From Patescibacteria group bacterium (lineage in GTDB: Bacteria > Patescibacteriota > Minisyncoccia > Phycocordibacterales > SIBU01): DNA of 64,000 nucleotides. The translations under genes and the position numbers were made by a program. The notes beneath the pieces are model-generated. The model made no database searches, had not been told where the DNA came from, and saw only the letters and a program-made list of their open reading frames with translations. Positions 3,662 to 56,460 of this stretch are shown in pieces; position 1 is the first letter of the stretch, and each line of letters opens with the position of its first letter. The stretch is taken from contig JAZJZC010000004.1 in assembly GCA_040390045.1 (NCBI GenBank), positions 67,157 through 131,156 on the forward strand. Reading direction: 5' to 3'.

Positions 3662-4429
3662 ATGGCACCAGCGCATCACAACAAAATTTACATTTACGGC
3701 AAACACGCCTTAGCCGAAGCCTTGACGAACACTCCAAAGGTTATTGAAGAAATTTTCATGACTTCTACATTTGATGATTCTGCTATTCGAGCGCAGGTCA
3801 AAAAGCTTGGTCTCGCCACCTCAGTTTTGTTACCAAATAAATTACCAAAAGAAGTTGATTCACAAGCGGCTCACCAGGGAATTATTGGCGTGCTTTCTTT
3901 TGACAGACTGATCCAACCGTTCACACAATTTGCTGAAAATTTAAAAATTACTCCCGACACCTCGCTGATTCTTTTAGGTGAACTTTCCGACCCACAAAAT
4001 GTCGGCGCGGTGATTCGCAGTGCTGCCGCCTTTGGAATTTCTGCCGTTTTAATTCCTGAACACAATCAAGCTCAGATCACCGGTTCGGTGGTAAAAGTTT
4101 CGGCAGGAATGGTTTTCAGAATTCCGTTGGTCTCAGTGAGCAATGTTAATACCAGTTTACGTGAATTGAAGGATAGGGGATTTGCCGTGTACGGTCTTGA
4201 AGGTGGAGCAAAATACACTATGCCGAAGGAGGAATTTGAATTACCGACAATTTTTGTACTTGGCAACGAGTCAGAAGGCATTCGCGAAAAAACTCGCGAG
4301 CTCTGTGATAAATTAATTTCCATTCCCATTAGTCCAAATTGCGAATCATTGAACGCTGGTGTCTCCGCCGCCGTTGCATTTTACGCATGGAGCGCGAAAC
4401 ATCCGAAGGCTGTAAGATCAAGCAAATAA
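3662..4429 (+). CDS. TrmH/SpoU-family RNA 2'-O-methyltransferase (RlmB-like)
   Basis: IYGKHALAEAL N-terminal domain and SpoU motifs (DPQNVGAVIRSAAAFG, LGNESEGI). ATG at 3662 chosen; the 3569 extension is untypical. Confidence 0.75.
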   Translation: MAPAHHNKIYIYGKHALAEALTNTPKVIEEIFMTSTFDDSAIRAQVKKLGLATSVLLPNKLPKEVDSQAAHQGIIGVLSFDRLIQPFTQFAENLKITPDTSLILLGELSDPQNVGAVIRSAAAFGISAVLIPEHNQAQITGSVVKVSAGMVFRIPLVSVSNVNTSLRELKDRGFAVYGLEGGAKYTMPKEEFELPTIFVLGNESEGIREKTRELCDKLISIPISPNCESLNAGVSAAVAFYAWSAKHPKAVRSSK

Positions 4430-10750: not shown

Positions 10751-13700
10751 TTATTTAAGCTCTTTAATTTTTTCCGCAATCAAACTAATTTCGTCATTTC
10801 GATTCGAGATTTTGCCTTTGATGGCGACACATTTTTCCGCAACAAGAAGCGCTTTAAATTCTTCATAGACTTTTGGAAAAACCACCGCTTCAATAGTTCC
10901 GCTTAAATCAGCAAGGCGGAGGAACATCATCTGATCGTTTTTCTTAGTGAAAATTGGTTTGGCTTCCTCGATGATGCCGCCGAGAACTACGACCATTCCT
11001 TCCTTCATTTCCGCTTTGCATTTCACAATGTTCATGTCCCTTTTTTCTAAAACATTTTTAAATTTATCAAGCGGATGTCCCGAAATGTATAAGCCAAGGA
11101 GCTCTTTTTCCCAAATTAATTTTTCAGATGCTGTGGCAGGAGATCCTTGCGTGAGTACCAAGCCTTCATTTTCCGAAACAGTTAGTGTGTTGCCGAATAA
11201 AGAATCCTGATTTTCTATTTTTTGAGATTTTTCTTTATTGAATTGCAAAAGATTGTCCATGTTCGCCATCATCATCCCACGTTCGCCAAAGTCGTCGAGT
11301 GCGCCGGATTTAATCAAGGCTTCAATTGATTTTTTGTTAAGACTTCGGTCATGCACACGGGTCAAAAAATCTCCAAGGGATTTAAACGCACCGTTTTTCA
11401 CGCGCTCAGCAATAATGACATCGGCAATGCCTTCTCCAAAGTTTTTAATGGTTGTTAACCCAAACCTGATGCGGTCTACCGCATCAGGAGCTGTAAGCTG
11501 TAAGCTGTCAGCTTTTAGCTTCACCACCGTAAAACCTGAGTAGCTTTCATTAATCGATGGAGGCAATACCGGAATTTTCATTCGTTTACATTCCGAAATA
11601 ATTTCAGAAATTTTTTCAACGTCGCCCGAGTCGGCGGTGAGTACGGCAGACATATAGATCGCGGGGAAGTTGGCTTTCATGTAGGCAGTTTGATATGCCA
11701 CACGTCCGTAACTTGCAGCGTGGGCCTTACCGAAGCCGTATGCAGCAAAAGGCTCGATCAGTTTCCAAAGTTCATCGGCCTTTTTCTCGCTCATGCCATT
11801 TTTTACCAGACCTTTCAACAGTTTTTCTTTTTGCGCGTCCATCTCAGCGACAATTTTCTTTCCCATGGCTTTGCGGAGTTTGTCTGCTTCGAGCCACGAG
11901 TATCCTGCGAGTTCAATAGCGATTAACATAACATCTTCCTGGTAGGTAATAACTCCATACGACGCCGAAAGAATATTTTTCATGCGTGGGTCGAGATATT
12001 TAACCAGCGATGGATTATGTTTTCGCTCAATATACTGAGGGATCGATTCCATAGGACCCGGACGATAGAGAGCCACCATGGCGTTGATATCATGAATGCT
12101 TGTAGGTCGCAGATCTTTAAGATAGTGAGTCATACCTGAACCACTGAGTTGAAAAAGTCCACCGGTAATTCCAAGCGCGAGCATCGCAAAAGTTTTTTTG
12201 TCATCAATCGGAATGGTGTCAATATCAATATCTACATTTTCTAATTTTTTAGCCAGCAAAACTGCATCAGCAAGAATGGAAAGATTTTTAATTCCAAGAA
12301 AGTCGAATTTCAAAAGCCCGACATCCTCCATAACATACATATCGTATTGAGTAATAATTTTTCCTTCGCCTTTAGGATCAAACTGCAGTGGGGTAAAATC
12401 TGTTAAAGGTCTAGGGGAAATAACCACACCAGCCGCATGTACCGAAATGTGTCGGGCGCAACCCTCAATTTTTTTAGCTAAATCAATAATTTCCGTGACC
12501 TCGGGTTCATTTTTGTATCTTTTTTTCAGCTCAGGAACTAACTCCATAGCTCGATCGATTGACATGGGAAAACCTTGCGAACCCATTGGGATCATTTTTG
12601 AAATACCATCACCCAAACTATACGGATGCCCGAGCGCTCGCGCCACATCTCTCACGGACCCACGCGCCATCATAGTTCCAAAAGTTCCCACCTGCGCCAC
12701 TTTATCCTCGCCGTACTTTTTTCGCGCATATGTAATCAGTTCATCGCGTCGCGAATCGGCAATGTCCATGTCAATATCGGGAGCAGAAGGTCGTTCGGGA
12801 TTGAGAAATCTCTCGAAGGGCAATTTATATTCAATGGGATTTACGGTACTAATGTAGGCGAGGTAGGAAACCATCGATCCAGCGGCCGAACCTCTCGTGG
12901 TACTAAAAATTTTCTCACTTCTGGCGTGACGAAGAAGGTCAGACACCACTAAAAAATATGGAGAGTAGCCTTTATCGCGAATGATTTTCAATTCATACTC
13001 AACACGATCAGTTACTTCTTTTGTCGCTTCAATGCTTCGAGTTTTGATACCGTCGTACACTAACGCCTTCAACTCCTCATCAAGAGTTCTTCCGGAGGCA
13101 ACTTTGTAGTCGGGGAAAACCCATTTGCCGAGCTCGATTTCCAGGTTGCACATATCAGCAATCTTGGCGTTGTTTTCAAGGGCTTCGGGCAACTTTTTAA
13201 AAAATTTTTGCGCGTCCTTGTCAGATATGAAAGAAAAATCGCCGGTGTTTTCAGCTTGACCGGCCCGCTCGCTCAATTCAGCGTTGCTGTTTACAAGGGT
13301 TAATGTATTCCGCGCTGTCTTGTCTTTTTCAGAAAGGTAGTAGACATCGTGGCAGGCTACAATATTCGTTTGAGTTTGTTTGGCAAAATCGATCAACATT
13401 TCCATTCTCTTGTCGTGTCCTTCAACCTCGGGGAAATGAGTGATTTCCAAAAAGAAATTATCGTTGCCATACATTTTTTTATACCAGTCAGCAATTTTTG
13501 TGGCGTTTTCAATATCGCCAGACTTAAGCGCCTCCAAAATTTGACTATTAAATGATGGCGCGATTGCCACTAAACCTTCAGAATATTTTTCGATAAGTTC
13601 TGCGTCGATTCTCGGCTTGTAATAGAAGCCGTCAAAATGCGATTCGGTTACCAGTTTAATTAAATTTTTGTAACCAATAAGATTTTTGGCAAGCAAAACC

Positions 13701-53486: not shown

Positions 53487-53640
53487 CTTTGCGGAGGGGA
53501 ATCGAACAGCGGAGTCATGTTTTTTCATCAGAAAAAACGGACGAGCTGGTGCCCAGACAAATTCGAGCGACGGCAAGAATTTAGTCGCGGGCGATTCACC
53601 CATATAGGCGTCAACTTGAAAAAGTGTTACCATTTTAACT
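53487..53640 (+). promoter_or_regulatory. structured leader upstream of TerC-family gene; weak yybP-ykoY (Mn2+) riboswitch-like candidate
   Basis: Several hairpins. GGAGGGGAAUCG, GUCAUG and GGCAAGAAUUUAG loosely echo conserved yybP-ykoY blocks, but GAGAC is absent. The gene context (TerC) is the classical one. Confidence 0.3.
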
Positions 53641-53645
53641 CTCTT

Positions 53646-54578
53646 ATGTCTTTAATTCTCACAATTCTCGGCCTAGCACTTTTTGAAATCATCAACAGCG
53701 TGGATAACGCGGTAATTAACGCTGAAGTCCTTTCAAAAATGAGTCAAAAATCCAGAAAGTGGTTCCTACTTTGGGGAGTTCTGTTGGCCGTTTTTCTTGT
53801 TCGTGGACTTTTGCCCTGGATAATTATTTGGCTCACCAGTGGCGAACTAACACTCTGGCAAGCCCTCGTTGCCACATTAAGTTCCAGTCCTGAAATTCAC
53901 ACATTGATCGAGCAATCGGCCCCGCCACTTCTTGTTGGCTCCGGCATCTTTTTAATTTTTCTTTTTCTTTATTGGTTATTTTTGGAGCAGAAATCTTACG
54001 GACTTATTGGCGAACGATTTATTCACCGTCATGGTCTATGGTTTTATACCGTTGCCTCAATTGTACTGACAATAATCGTGTGGATTTGCATCAAAATCAA
54101 TCCAATAATGGCGCTTGGAGCCGTCATCGGATCAACAGGATTTTTCATGGTCCATGGTTTTAAAGAAAATGCCGAAGCCGCAGAAAAAGAAATGTTGAGC
54201 GGGCAGGGAAATCTTTCTGACTGGTCAAAAATTTTCTACCTTGAGGCCATTGATGCCTGTTTCTCGATCGATGGAGTGCTCGGTGCCTTCGCCTTTACCC
54301 TTTCCGTGCCACTTATTCTTATTGGCAATGGCATCGGAGCTATTGTAGTTCGTCAGCTCACGATCGGTAACATTGATCGCGTCAAACAATTTGTGTTCCT
54401 TAAAAATGGCGCGATGTACTCAATCCTAGTTTTAGGTATCATCATGATCCTCGATTCATTCGGATTTCAAATTCCAACGTGGCTATCTCCGCTCGTCACC
54501 TTTATAATCATCGGCTACTTTTTCTATAAATCTGTTAAGCAAATTTCAAAATTAAATAGCACTGTTCCTTCTCTCTAA
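53646..54578 (+). CDS. TerC-family integral membrane protein
   Basis: Multi-pass TM protein with INSVDNAVINAEVL and SIDGVLGAF TerC-like motifs. Confidence 0.7.
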   Translation: MSLILTILGLALFEIINSVDNAVINAEVLSKMSQKSRKWFLLWGVLLAVFLVRGLLPWIIIWLTSGELTLWQALVATLSSSPEIHTLIEQSAPPLLVGSGIFLIFLFLYWLFLEQKSYGLIGERFIHRHGLWFYTVASIVLTIIVWICIKINPIMALGAVIGSTGFFMVHGFKENAEAAEKEMLSGQGNLSDWSKIFYLEAIDACFSIDGVLGAFAFTLSVPLILIGNGIGAIVVRQLTIGNIDRVKQFVFLKNGAMYSILVLGIIMILDSFGFQIPTWLSPLVTFIIIGYFFYKSVKQISKLNSTVPSL

Positions 54579-54661
54579 TTTTTGCGATTTTGTGTAAAAA
54601 TGCTATGCTTTTTCTGTTCCGCAATGTTACGTGTTCCATGTTTCGTGATGCATGATTTCGA

Positions 54662-54700
54662 GGCCCTATCGTCTATCGGCTAGGACACGGCCTTCGAAAG
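54662..54700 (+). pseudogene. tRNA-Glu-like 5' fragment
   Basis: ggccctatcgtctatcggctaggac closely matches the 5' half of tRNA-Glu. The anticodon stem is decayed and no T-arm or acceptor 3' strand follows. Confidence 0.5.
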
Positions 54701-54823
54701 GTGAGCTTGGGATTGGGACCCGAGCGCAAGACCTTGAGCGATCTGTCCTCAGAATGCGAAGGGTGTACAGCTCCTGTAAGGAGGGAAATGCGGGGTGAGT
54801 GTTTTGTGTTAAAATTGAAATTA

Positions 54824-54895
54824 TGGCCCTATCGTCTAACGGTTAGGACGGAGGCTTCTCAAGCCTTAAATCCGGGTTCGATTCCCGGTAGGGTC
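54824..54895 (+). tRNA. tRNA-Glu (anticodon CUC)
   Basis: 72-nt cloverleaf, anticodon loop ttCTCaa, T-loop ttcgatt. Confidence 0.85.
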
Positions 54896-54910
54896 ACATT
54901 TTGAAACAAA

Positions 54911-55849
54911 ATGGTTTTCAAAAGCCTCAAATCCATTTTAACCTTTGGTAGCAAGTTATTTCAAGTTAGAAAGAGTTCTGAAATATATAATGGTGGTAGA
55001 ATAGCACCAATGACAACTGATGAAAATAAAATATTTATAGAATTATCCGAACTTCTCAAAAGGGCTGTTAATTTAATCGAGTTACGTATAGAACAAATTG
55101 AAAATAAACATCCAGAATCCACAACTTCAAAGGCAGAGAAAGAGGCAGATGCATGTATAAGAACATTTTATGTTAGATCACTAAAACCGTACCGGGATAC
55201 AATATTATTTCTTTCGGAAGAAATCGTCCGAGAAAATGAGAAATATCATTTCTTTTTAGTACCACATGCTCGAAAACTCTTTGATATATATGTTCGATTT
55301 TTACATCTACTTGAAAACTGCGCTTCAGAAAATCAACGCGGGCTAGCATGTATTGCATACCAATTACTAGCATATAAAGGATTGAGAAATGAGAGTGTAT
55401 ATAACGAATTATTATCCATCAATAAGAACTTGCTGGATGAAGAAAAACGTACTTTTCCAAATTTTATTGATTTTGATTATTTATGGTATTTAAGAACGAG
55501 TGGTCTGGCATTTAAGACGACACGAGATTTATTTAAAGTGGATATTATAAATAAATATTCAAATCCTCCAATAAAAATATTTAGGGGACAAAATATTGTT
55601 GAACTATATGGTTCTATATCTGAGCTCTGCCACGGTAACCCTTATTATCATTACGATTCTCCCTATACTGAGAGATTTTGGGTTGCGACAATAAGTTTTA
55701 TGGTGACATCTTATCTCATTAATTTGACTGATACTTACATTTTGAATAAAACTTTACCACGAGATTTTCATGATTGGCTAAGAGAAGTCGATAAGGCCAG
55801 TCGTTCGATGGTTGCAATATGGAAAACAAAAAGAAGAACTACTCTATGA
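54911..55849 (+). CDS. AT-rich orphan hypothetical protein adjacent to tRNA-Glu
   Basis: 312-aa ORF starting 16 nt after the tRNA, with an alternative ATG at 55010. Markedly lower GC than neighbours. Contains RENEKYH (Rx5H) but no confident domain. Confidence 0.55.
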   Translation: MVFKSLKSILTFGSKLFQVRKSSEIYNGGRIAPMTTDENKIFIELSELLKRAVNLIELRIEQIENKHPESTTSKAEKEADACIRTFYVRSLKPYRDTILFLSEEIVRENEKYHFFLVPHARKLFDIYVRFLHLLENCASENQRGLACIAYQLLAYKGLRNESVYNELLSINKNLLDEEKRTFPNFIDFDYLWYLRTSGLAFKTTRDLFKVDIINKYSNPPIKIFRGQNIVELYGSISELCHGNPYYHYDSPYTERFWVATISFMVTSYLINLTDTYILNKTLPRDFHDWLREVDKASRSMVAIWKTKRRTTL

Positions 55850-55935
55850 AAAACTTACTATATAGACTTTGACAGCTGGTCTTTGCCGATTCCCAAAAAT
55901 TTGCTAATTTCGCCACAAAAGCATAGACTTAGCAA

Positions 55936-56460
55936 ATGAATAACTACCAAGACAGAGGAAACCGAGGCGGGGGATTTAGAGGTGGAAACGGAGGTGGTGG
56001 CGCGCCATATCAGAAGAAGACCTGGGGAGCTGACCGAGGTGGCGAGCGAGACAAACCGATGTTTAAGGCAACCTGTGCTGAGTGTGGCAAGGCTTGCGAA
56101 GTACCATTCCGACCAACAGGTGACAAACCGGTCTATTGCCGCGATTGTTTTAATAGTAAACGAGAACCGAGTGATTCACGAGGTGGCTCACGACCAGATT
56201 TTAGTAACAGAGCTCCGAGGAGAGATTTCGGTGACAAAGCAAGTTTCCGACCCGACACACGACCTGATCCACGACTTTCACTCGCCAACGACGAGCTCAA
56301 AAAACAGCTATCCGAAATTAGTTCCAAACTCGATCGACTTTTGTCGGTAATGGAGAAGGGAAGCGTGGCTAAAAAAGAAACCTCTGAGTCAGTAAAGTCT
56401 TCCGAAGAAACTCCCAAACCTAAAATATCAAAAACTCGAACTGGAAAAGCGAAAAAATAA
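55936..56460 (+). CDS. RGG-rich zinc-ribbon protein
   Basis: Gly/Arg-rich N-terminus, CAECGKAC...CRDC zinc ribbon, Lys/Ser-rich coiled C-terminus. Confidence 0.6.
   Translation: MNNYQDRGNRGGGFRGGNGGGGAPYQKKTWGADRGGERDKPMFKATCAECGKACEVPFRPTGDKPVYCRDCFNSKREPSDSRGGSRPDFSNRAPRRDFGDKASFRPDTRPDPRLSLANDELKKQLSEISSKLDRLLSVMEKGSVAKKETSESVKSSEETPKPKISKTRTGKAKK

What the first reader, a model, noticed from the sequence alone, without database searches (positions are those of the whole stretch)
54662..55849. AT-rich orphan gene immediately 3' of tRNA-Glu, preceded by a tRNA-Glu 5'-fragment duplicate
The 312-aa ORF starts 16 nt after tRNA-Glu, is much more AT-rich than its flanks, and has no recognisable domain apart from an Rx5H motif. 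A degenerate copy of the tRNA 5' half lies about 160 bp upstream of the intact tRNA. A tRNA-adjacent, compositionally aberrant gene next to a partial tRNA repeat is typical of integrated foreign DNA. Such cargo is often a phage-defence or abortive-infection gene. There is no integrase here, so this would be a remnant or minimal islet.
Basis: partly seen in the sequence, partly recalled or inferred. Interest (0 to 1): 0.6.

Follow-up and report, generated by a model that had tools for sequence, protein, structure and literature searches.

The report
AT-rich DUF5677-like gene beside tRNA-Glu
A single AT-rich gene next to a tRNA-Glu gene in a Patescibacteria genome is probably horizontally acquired and is a distant member of the uncharacterised DUF5677 family; the partial tRNA copy upstream does not flank this gene but a separate 163-bp insert holding a small conserved RNA-like structure absent from Rfam.

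Summary
tRNA-Glu(CUC) is at 54825-54897. A maximal ORF runs 54911-55849, but the likely start is 55010, giving 279 aa. This is the lowest-GC stretch of the window (0.32 against 0.43). A 39-nt copy of the tRNA 5' part lies 163 nt upstream.

The gene is intact and looks foreign. It belongs to a family of about 108 clusters that sit in unrelated contexts, including a Zeta-toxin operon, an integrase-flanked island, a Panacea-domain neighbour and a T4SS pilin. Family genes are AT-rich whatever the host GC. The gene is missing from the matching position in the nearest relative found. It is not an orphan: 33 of 83 relatives hit Pfam DUF5677.

The tRNA fragment lies on the wrong side to be this gene's att scar. 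No 3' tRNA repeat or integrase was found.

The fragment and the intact tRNA instead bracket a conserved structured motif of about 90 nt. The motif recurs in two related genomes, once next to a 15-nt tRNA-Leu 3' repeat, and is absent from Rfam. That motif is the more novel lead.

The parts
54581..54609 (+). Weak promoter-like site TTGCGA-17-TATGCT upstream of the tRNA fragment, the motif and tRNA-Glu.
   Evidence: Read from the sequence. It matches 8 of 12 consensus positions, below the scan threshold used. It resembles the TTGCTA-17-TAGACT site before the Zn-ribbon gene, which is conserved in L123. This part is inferred.
54662..54700 (+). Partial copy of the tRNA-Glu 5' part (acceptor 5' strand, D arm, anticodon-stem 5' strand). 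It is the left direct repeat of a 163-bp insert.
   Evidence: The 39-nt match and shuffle control are. ARAGORN with introns enabled finds no tRNA that uses this fragment.
54700..54785 (+). Conserved structured motif: GGUGAG, a variable hairpin, CGCAA, a GACCUU/AAGGU helix enclosing a second hairpin, GUAC, and a hairpin with loop UGUAA.
   Evidence: It is 90% identical over 59 nt to L011:11174-11232 and 91% over 44 nt to L011:11049-11092. Covariance model R1 finds a fourth copy at L012:4041-4152. G-U pairs place it on the + strand. No Rfam family matches at E up to 10.
54825..54897 (+). Intact tRNA-Glu(CUC). Its 5' part is the right direct repeat.
54911..55009 (+). In-frame N-terminal extension of the maximal ORF, probably non-coding.
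   Evidence: No homologue has it; alignments and the NCBI annotation start at M34. It holds an AT-rich hairpin at 54908-54939 (I25) and a TATAAT at 54985-54990 (read).
55010..55849 (+). Probable CDS of 279 aa: an all-helical, divergent DUF5677-superfamily protein that is AT-rich.
   Evidence: Homologues are. The AlphaFold2 model has pLDDT 95.8. Invariant residues are R88, H208 and W224.
55850..55890 (.). Right junction of the AT-rich islet.
   Evidence: Collinearity with relative L123 begins at window 55891.
55936..56460 (+). Flanking native gene: a CxxC-x17-CxxC treble-clef zinc-finger protein, with its conserved promoter at about 55895-55925.
   Evidence: Pfam zf_Tbcl_2 at 3.9e-18. It is collinear with L123 together with the methyltransferase downstream.

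Best explanation
The ORF (probable CDS 55010-55849) is an intact, horizontally acquired single-gene islet of about 1 kb. It sits between tRNA-Glu and the native zinc-ribbon gene in a Patescibacteria chromosome.

It encodes a 279-aa all-helical protein from a small, mostly Patescibacteria/groundwater family. That family is a divergent branch of the uncharacterised Pfam family DUF5677. The family behaves as a mobile accessory gene.

Most likely function (inferred, not shown): a stand-alone conflict-system protein, either phage-defence/abortive-infection or toxin-like. The invariant R88 and H208, with S204, Y200 and E221, would form a polar catalytic or ligand-binding pocket on a helical bundle.

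The upstream tRNA-Glu 5' fragment is unrelated to how the gene arrived. Together with the intact tRNA it forms the direct repeats of a separate 163-bp insert carrying a conserved structured RNA-like motif.
For: Shown:
- Composition. It is the lowest-GC stretch of the window. Family genes have lower GC than their flanks in 9 of 9 loci.
- Family. There are 8 close homologues at 41-64% identity. A profile search finds 108 representative clusters, nearly all single-domain proteins of 265-300 aa.
- DUF5677 link. 33 of 83 members hit PF18928, and three of ten checked pass its gathering score (P0058 36.1, P0070 31.5, P0062 27.6 bits against 27.1). The match covers the region that holds R88 to H208. 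The profile built on the window protein and its close homologues finds those same proteins at E 8e-21 to 5e-17.
- Contexts of relatives differ in every case:
  - a Zeta-toxin/DUF7695 operon between murB and secA;
  - an island between two tyrosine integrases, with DUF3800, MerR, DUF4325, Ltp and a tandem weak-DUF5677 paralogue;
  - a SocA_Panacea neighbour;
  - a T4SS pilin neighbour;
  - an HTH_3 neighbour;
  - between rpsI and bipA.
- The gene is absent at the corresponding place in the nearest relative, L123. The next relatives have other upstream neighbours.
- The gene is full length and keeps all family-invariant residues. The AlphaFold2 model has pLDDT 95.8.
- DUF5677 is enriched beside serine recombinases in defence-rich contigs (P 2e-92, n=25; supplement of bioRxiv 10.1101/2025.10.07.681051).
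- The insert is separate. Direct repeats 163 nt apart enclose the motif, and the same architecture occurs in L012.
Against: - The window protein itself gives no Pfam, PADLOC or NCBIfam hit, so family membership is transitive.
- No family member matches any PADLOC defence model convincingly.
- No relative was found in phage or plasmid collections, or in IMG/VR.
- The one DUF5677 ORF tested experimentally was not among those reported to protect against phage.
- No recombinase, terminal repeat or tRNA 3' duplicate marks the islet, so how it was inserted is unknown.
- The nearest relative shares only 72-75% identity and its contig shows just 162 nt upstream. The 'empty site' evidence is therefore thin.
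Confidence: 0.7

Rival explanations
1. One reading: the gene is the last cargo of a decayed genomic island integrated at tRNA-Glu, and the upstream tRNA 5' fragment is the island's att scar.
For: The gene directly follows a tRNA 3' end. It is compositionally foreign. A real partial tRNA repeat lies nearby. One family relative sits in an integrase-flanked island and another lies about 670 nt from a tRNA-Gln.
Against: The repeat is a 5' fragment placed upstream of the intact tRNA, so the DNA it brackets is 54701-54824, not the ORF. No copy of the tRNA 3' half exists downstream or anywhere else in the window. No integrase lies within about 10 kb. The bracketed DNA contains its own conserved element, found with a tRNA-Leu repeat in another genome that has no DUF5677-like gene.
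Confidence: 0.12
2. The protein is a HEPN-type RNase abortive-infection or toxin effector that cleaves RNA through an Rx4-6H site.
Confidence: 0.15
3. The gene is a native, vertically inherited, lineage-specific gene. Its low GC reflects relaxed constraint or amino-acid composition rather than transfer.
For: No mobility gene or repeat marks it. Synteny in this clade is poor in general, because even the DUF475 and Zn-ribbon genes have different neighbours in relatives. Absence in relatives is therefore weak evidence.
Against: The family is patchy, with different neighbours in every locus. It keeps about 0.32 GC in hosts ranging from 0.34 to 0.49. It occurs inside an integrase-bounded island and in toxin-antitoxin-like operons. 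The collinearity break with L123 falls right at the edge of the AT-rich block.
Confidence: 0.1
4. The fragment plus spacer is the remnant of an intron-containing tRNA-Glu gene, that is, a 5' exon followed by a truncated group I intron.
For: The similarity to tRNA-Glu breaks in the anticodon loop at about position 34/35. That is a classical group I intron site. About 40% of Patescibacteria genomes carry group I introns, and their tRNA introns sit in the anticodon loop (PMC13011429).
Against: No Rfam group I intron hit appears even at E up to 10. No 3' exon is present. The same motif occurs as a tandem pair away from any tRNA in L011, and next to a T-loop/3'-end repeat of tRNA-Leu in L012. The unit is only 90-125 nt.
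Confidence: 0.1

Closest known systems
Pfam PF18928 (DUF5677; InterPro IPR043733)
   Same: Relatives of the window protein pass the Pfam gathering score over the central 130 or so residues, which carry the invariant Arg and the Y-x3-S-x3-H motif. A tandem paralogue in L115 shares the YG..S...H motif. DUF5677 is enriched next to recombinases in mobile defence-rich regions, which fits the variable contexts seen here.
   Different: The window protein and its closest homologues are not detected by the Pfam model. They carry extra N- and C-terminal helices, 279 aa against a 166-position domain. They come mostly from Patescibacteria/groundwater metagenomes. No function is known for DUF5677.
HEPN-domain toxins and Abi effectors (for example the HEPN toxins of HEPN-MNT pairs, PDB 5yep, 7ae2, 8xdj)
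   Different: There is no conserved Rx4-6H motif and no profile match. The protein is twice the size of a minimal HEPN domain. The structural match is no better than to unrelated four-helix bundles.
tRNA-gene integrative elements and their deletion derivatives (genomic islets, CIME-like elements bounded by attL/attR)
   Same: Partial tRNA direct repeats bracket inserted DNA. Here these are tRNA-Glu 5' part, 163 bp, intact tRNA; in L012 they are intact tRNA-Leu, 278 bp, exact 15-nt 3' repeat. An AT-rich accessory gene abuts the tRNA.
   Different: The bracketed DNA is only 125-280 bp and has no integrase. Here the repeat is of the 5' rather than the usual 3' part of the tRNA. The ORF lies outside the bracket. 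The insert carries a covarying RNA-like structure, which att arms are not known to have (the last point is my own knowledge).

Membership tests
Pfam DUF5677 (PF18928) | The protein matches the family HMM at or above the gathering score (27.1 bits). | tested here: not met
   The window protein gives no Pfam hit at E up to 10.
Pfam DUF5677 (PF18928) | Significant homology to proteins that pass the gathering score (transitive membership in the superfamily). | tested here: met
   The profile of the window protein and its 8 homologues finds P0058, P0062 and P0070 at E 8e-21, 9.5e-20 and 5e-17 over the full length. Those score 36.1, 27.6 and 31.5 bits on PF18928. In all, 33 of 83 members hit it.
HEPN superfamily | A conserved Rx4-6H catalytic motif. 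| tested here: not met
   The only Rx5H (R107..H113 of the 312-aa ORF) varies among the closest homologues. The invariant R88 and H208 are 120 residues apart.
HEPN superfamily | The four-helix up-down HEPN fold. | tested here: inconclusive
HEPN superfamily / known Abi and defence families | A profile match to a HEPN, Abi or PADLOC model. | tested here: not met
   None for the window protein or for 83 family members.
tRNA-integrated genomic island | Location directly 3' of a tRNA gene. | tested here: met
   The tRNA ends at 54897; the ORF starts at 54911 (maximal) or 55010 (probable).
tRNA-integrated genomic island | A direct repeat of part of the tRNA at the distal end of the island, bracketing the cargo. 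| tested here: not met
   No match to the tRNA 3' half exists in the window beyond the tRNA itself and the generic tRNA-Ala T arm. The 5' repeat lies on the other side of the tRNA.
tRNA-integrated genomic island | An integrase or recombinase gene in the island. | tested here: not met
   Neighbours within about 10 kb are a UvrD/PD-(D/E)XK helicase-nuclease, DsbA-like, sortase, RNase H-like, HisRS, DUF475, zinc ribbon, methyltransferase, UbiA and RmuC.
tRNA-integrated genomic island | Absence of the island at the same site in related genomes. | tested here: inconclusive
   L123 (Zn-ribbon 75% aa) is collinear from window 55891 onward and lacks the gene and the tRNA in its 162 nt upstream. The contig ends there, and more distant relatives are rearranged.
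Group I intron in a tRNA gene | 5' exon, catalytic core and 3' exon that reconstitute a tRNA. | tested here: not met
   No Intron_gpI hit, no 3' exon, and ARAGORN with introns enabled finds nothing at its default threshold.

The most novel reading that the evidence does not exclude
The structured motif of about 90 nt (window 54700-54785) may be the signature of a previously undescribed small element or RNA of Patescibacteria. It could be a miniature, non-autonomous element that sits in tRNA genes flanked by partial tRNA direct repeats, mobilised in trans. Or it could be a new tRNA-linked structured RNA or ribozyme co-transcribed with tRNAs. On this reading the DUF5677-like gene is a divergent, mobile conflict gene that happens to lie beside it.
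Probability: 0.3. Interest if true: 0.65.

Novelty: new member of a known kind. Interest (0 to 1): 0.4.

Why it matters
Taken alone, the gene is an ordinary accessory gene. It extends the uncharacterised DUF5677 family into Patescibacteria and identifies a sub-family the Pfam model misses, with invariant Arg, His and Trp residues to mutate. DUF5677 is statistically tied to mobile defence regions but has no known activity, so a compact 279-aa representative with a very confident model is a reasonable candidate for testing.

The more unexpected result concerns the 'tRNA scar'. It belongs to a recurring architecture in which partial tRNA repeats bracket a covarying RNA-like motif that has no Rfam family. 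If real, it could explain some tRNA-gene fragments in reduced genomes and add a new small RNA or mini-element class to a phylum already known for unusual tRNA introns.

Tried and rejected
- Direct Pfam, PADLOC, PHROG and NCBIfam scans of the protein found nothing usable.
- PDB sequence searches with both profiles gave nothing, apart from a spurious repeat-protein hit.
- Foldseek against the PDB and against BFVD found nothing with E of 0.001 or better. AFDB50 was unavailable.
- Searches for relatives in IMG/VR, phage and plasmid collections found none. The A2 alignment was too diverse for a locus scan.
- Synteny through the DUF475 gene failed. Relatives at 78-81% identity have different neighbours and no tRNA-Glu.
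- Synteny through the Zn-ribbon gene in JGI metagenomes reached at best 55% identity and those loci were rearranged.
- The Logan-based protein search gave L123 at 75%, the only collinear relative, on a contig of just 1453 nt.
- I tested whether L123's 5' end is the tail of the DUF475 gene, which would make 54579-55890 a single insertion. At the nucleotide level the match is not above the shuffled null. At the protein level the tail aligns to the exact C-terminus, but the score is only 25, so this is inconclusive.
- I looked for a tRNA-Glu 3' remnant to close an island and found none.
- The inverted matches around 54577-54612 and 55891-55926 were rejected as terminal inverted repeats. They are not collinear and are better read as two similar promoters.
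- The spacer folded alone is not unusually stable (z -0.93). The structure became visible only by comparison.
- Viral-contig scans for the motif gave no hits.
- nhmmer and covariance-model searches of all loci held found no fifth copy.

Full report
**1. Observation**

ARAGORN and Rfam both place an intact tRNA-Glu(CUC) at 54825-54897 on the + strand. The longest ORF after it runs 54911-55849 and is 312 aa. Its first ATG is 13 nt after the tRNA.

All eight close homologues, and the NCBI annotation of the identical protein, start at Met34. That annotation reads 'MAG: hypothetical protein V4467_04255, Patescibacteria group bacterium', 279 aa. The 33-residue extension has no counterpart elsewhere. 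The likely CDS is therefore 55010-55849, 112 nt after the tRNA.

The ORF has 0.32 GC against a window mean of 0.433 (sd 0.038 for 840-nt windows). It is the lowest such stretch in the 64 kb.

The partial tRNA copy is real. 54662-54700 matches the first 39 nt of the tRNA at 79%, and the first 25 nt match 23/25. None of 100 shuffles gave such a match.

**2. The protein**

Direct scans of Pfam, PADLOC, PHROGs and NCBIfam give nothing usable. The protein is nevertheless not an orphan.
- There are eight homologues at 41-64% identity.
- A profile of these finds 108 representative clusters in 1.8 billion proteins. Nearly all are single-domain proteins of 265-300 aa.
- When 83 members are scanned individually, 33 hit Pfam PF18928 (DUF5677), with a best E-value of 9e-9.
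- Of ten members checked, three exceed the gathering score. The match covers residues of about 85-220, the region carrying the conserved residues.

The window protein is thus a divergent DUF5677-superfamily member that the current Pfam model misses.

Across the 83 sequences, R88, H208 and W224 are invariant, numbering from Met34. P150, Y200, S204, E221 and W271 are nearly invariant. The hallmark is Y-x3-S-E-x2-H-G-N-P.

AlphaFold2 with the 83-sequence alignment gives an all-helical model of very high confidence (pLDDT 95.8, pTM 0.92). Foldseek finds nothing significant in the PDB or in BFVD.

**3. Is it foreign?**

Several independent lines say yes.
- The gene is the strongest compositional outlier of the window.
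- Family genes have 0.28-0.39 GC in all nine loci examined, while their hosts range from 0.34 to 0.49. The deficit reaches 0.16-0.20 in the higher-GC hosts.
- Every relative sits in a different context:
  - between ftsW and glycosyltransferase genes, with a 90-aa upstream ORF;
  - next to a SocA_Panacea-domain gene;
  - near a tRNA-Gln;
  - next to a T4SS pilin;
  - next to an HTH_3 regulator;
  - as the last gene of a Zeta-toxin / 64-aa / DUF7695 operon wedged between murB and secA;
  - inside an island bounded by two tyrosine integrases that also carries DUF3800, DUF3892, MerR, DUF4325 and an Ltp-type lipoprotein, and where the gene just upstream is a weak DUF5677 paralogue;
  - alone between rpsI and bipA.
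- The nearest relative of the flanking DNA that I could find is L123, whose zinc-ribbon protein is 75% identical. It is collinear with the window from 55891 through the zinc-ribbon and methyltransferase genes at 72.6% nucleotide identity.
- The collinearity starts 42 nt after the ORF stop, at the edge of the AT-rich block. The 162 nt that L123 shows upstream contain no tRNA and no DUF5677-like coding sequence.
- Relatives at 72%, 60% and 55% identity have other genes upstream of the zinc-ribbon gene.

**4. The tRNA-island model**

No integrase lies within about 10 kb. The neighbours are ordinary genes.

No copy of the tRNA 3' half exists anywhere in the window. The partial repeat is a 5' fragment lying upstream of the intact tRNA, so the DNA it brackets is 54701-54824 and not the ORF.

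**5. What the fragment does bracket**

A blastn of the spacer against all fetched loci gave two matches in L011, a related Patescibacteria MAG. Window 54725-54783 is 90% identical over 59 nt to L011:11174-11232 and 91% over 44 nt to L011:11049-11092. These are two tandem copies in an intergenic region. Proteins of these two genomes are only 55-81% identical, so the non-coding match stands out.

The three copies share an ordered set of elements:
- GGUGAG;
- a hairpin whose sequence differs completely between copies;
- CGCAAG;
- a GACCUU/AAGGU helix that encloses GA, a second hairpin and GA;
- GUAC;
- a hairpin with loop UGUAA.

A covariance model built from them finds a fourth, divergent copy at L012:4041-4152 (22.9 bits, E about 1e-4).

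Over the four copies, 94.9% of cells pair and 12 of 26 pairs show changes on both sides. Versions with partners slid by 1-3 columns drop to 31-52% pairing with 1-4 such pairs. No shuffle of 500 reaches the observed values. Two caveats apply: there are only four sequences, and the alignment was fitted to the model.

G-U pairs place the structure on the + strand, the strand of the tRNA. No Rfam 15 family matches, even at E up to 10.

L012 shows the mirror image of the window. An intact tRNA-Leu(GAG) at 3803-3889 is followed by about 130 nt, then the motif. Immediately after the motif comes an exact 15-nt repeat of the tRNA-Leu 3' end (3873-3887 = 4151-4165). A degenerate third copy (ATTCCTGACCACAG) sits just before the motif (read).

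In both genomes, then, the motif is flanked by direct repeats derived from a tRNA, and it begins with GUGAG right after the left repeat.

In the window, 54649-54658 (AUGAUUUCGA) can also pair with 54815-54824 (UUGAAAUUAU). That would close the whole insert just before the mature tRNA 5' end. This pairing is read from the sequence and is not tested.

What this element is remains unexplained. The candidates are:
- A miniature or deletion-derived integrative element (attL-motif-attR).
- A structured leader or trailer RNA of tRNA transcripts.
- An intron remnant. Group I introns are frequent in Patescibacteria tRNA anticodon loops (PMC13011429), and the tRNA-Glu similarity breaks at about 34/35. 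Against this, there is no group I hit and no 3' exon, and the L011 copies are not at a tRNA.

**6. Mechanism and confidence**

Shown:
- The gene is intact, AT-rich and related to DUF5677.
- It has a patchy distribution and variable, often conflict-associated, contexts.
- The tRNA fragment belongs to a different insert.

Inferred:
- The gene was acquired horizontally, by an unknown route.
- It acts in inter-element conflict (defence, abortive infection or toxin-like), using a polar pocket formed by the invariant Arg and His with Ser, Glu and Tyr.

Support for a defence role is circumstantial. DUF5677 is strongly enriched beside serine recombinases in defence-rich contigs (supplement of bioRxiv 10.1101/2025.10.07.681051). 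But the DUF5677 ORF cloned in that study is not among the five reported to reduce plaquing.

I put about 0.7 on 'horizontally acquired DUF5677-superfamily accessory gene, with the fragment unrelated to it'. I put about 0.3 on an actual defence or toxin function.

**7. Novelty and score**

The gene is a new, divergent member of a known but uncharacterised family. That is useful but unsurprising. The structured motif bracketed by tRNA repeats is the more unusual observation, but it rests on four copies in three genomes. Overall interest is 0.4.

Noticed in passing
window 54700-54785; L011:11005-11111 and 11150-11233; L012:4023-4146: A conserved structured motif of about 90-125 nt: GGUGAG, variable hairpin, CGCAAG, GACCUU/AAGGU helix enclosing a hairpin, GUAC, hairpin with UGUAA loop. 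The helices show compensatory changes. It is not in Rfam 15. It occurs as a tandem pair in L011.
   Followed up: partly
L012:3803-4166: An intact tRNA-Leu(GAG) is followed 278 nt later by an exact 15-nt repeat of its 3' end, placed directly after the motif. A degenerate third copy sits just before the motif. This mirrors the window's arrangement of tRNA-Glu 5' fragment, motif and tRNA.
   Followed up: partly
window 54649-54658 with 54815-54824: AUGAUUUCGA can pair with UUGAAAUUAU (10 bp including 2 G-U pairs). This would close the fragment-plus-motif insert immediately before the mature tRNA-Glu 5' end. A similar closing stem, AAUUAAAAGACUC / GAGUCUUUAAUU, flanks the tandem pair in L011 (about 10972 and 11270).
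   Followed up: no
window 53640-54578 (DUF475/TerC-family membrane protein between tRNA-Ala and the tRNA-Glu region): Its relatives at 60-68% identity come from MAGs labelled as DPANN and other archaea (Woesearchaeota, Nanoarchaeia, Micrarchaeota, Methanosarcinales-labelled bins). Bacterial relatives at 78-81% have entirely different neighbours. This suggests that the gene is itself exchanged between episymbiont lineages.
   Followed up: no
window 55895-55925 and 54581-54609; L123:171-201: The promoter-like TTGCTA-17-TAGACT before the zinc-ribbon gene is conserved in L123 (TTGCTA-17-TAGAAT). It resembles TTGCGA-17-TATGCT upstream of the tRNA fragment. The short inverted matches reported between these two regions are better explained by this similarity than by terminal inverted repeats.
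   Followed up: partly
L115:6131-7849: Two adjacent genes of 282-288 aa are both DUF5677-like. The upstream one scores E 2e-4 on PF18928 and shares the YG..S...H motif. They lie in an island bounded by two tyrosine integrases, so the family can occur as tandem paralogues.
   Followed up: partly
L113:5866-7843: A Zeta-toxin gene, a 64-aa ORF, a DUF7695 ORF and the DUF5677-like gene form a tight, overlapping operon between murB and secA. This may be a multi-gene toxin-antitoxin or defence module that includes the family.
   Followed up: no
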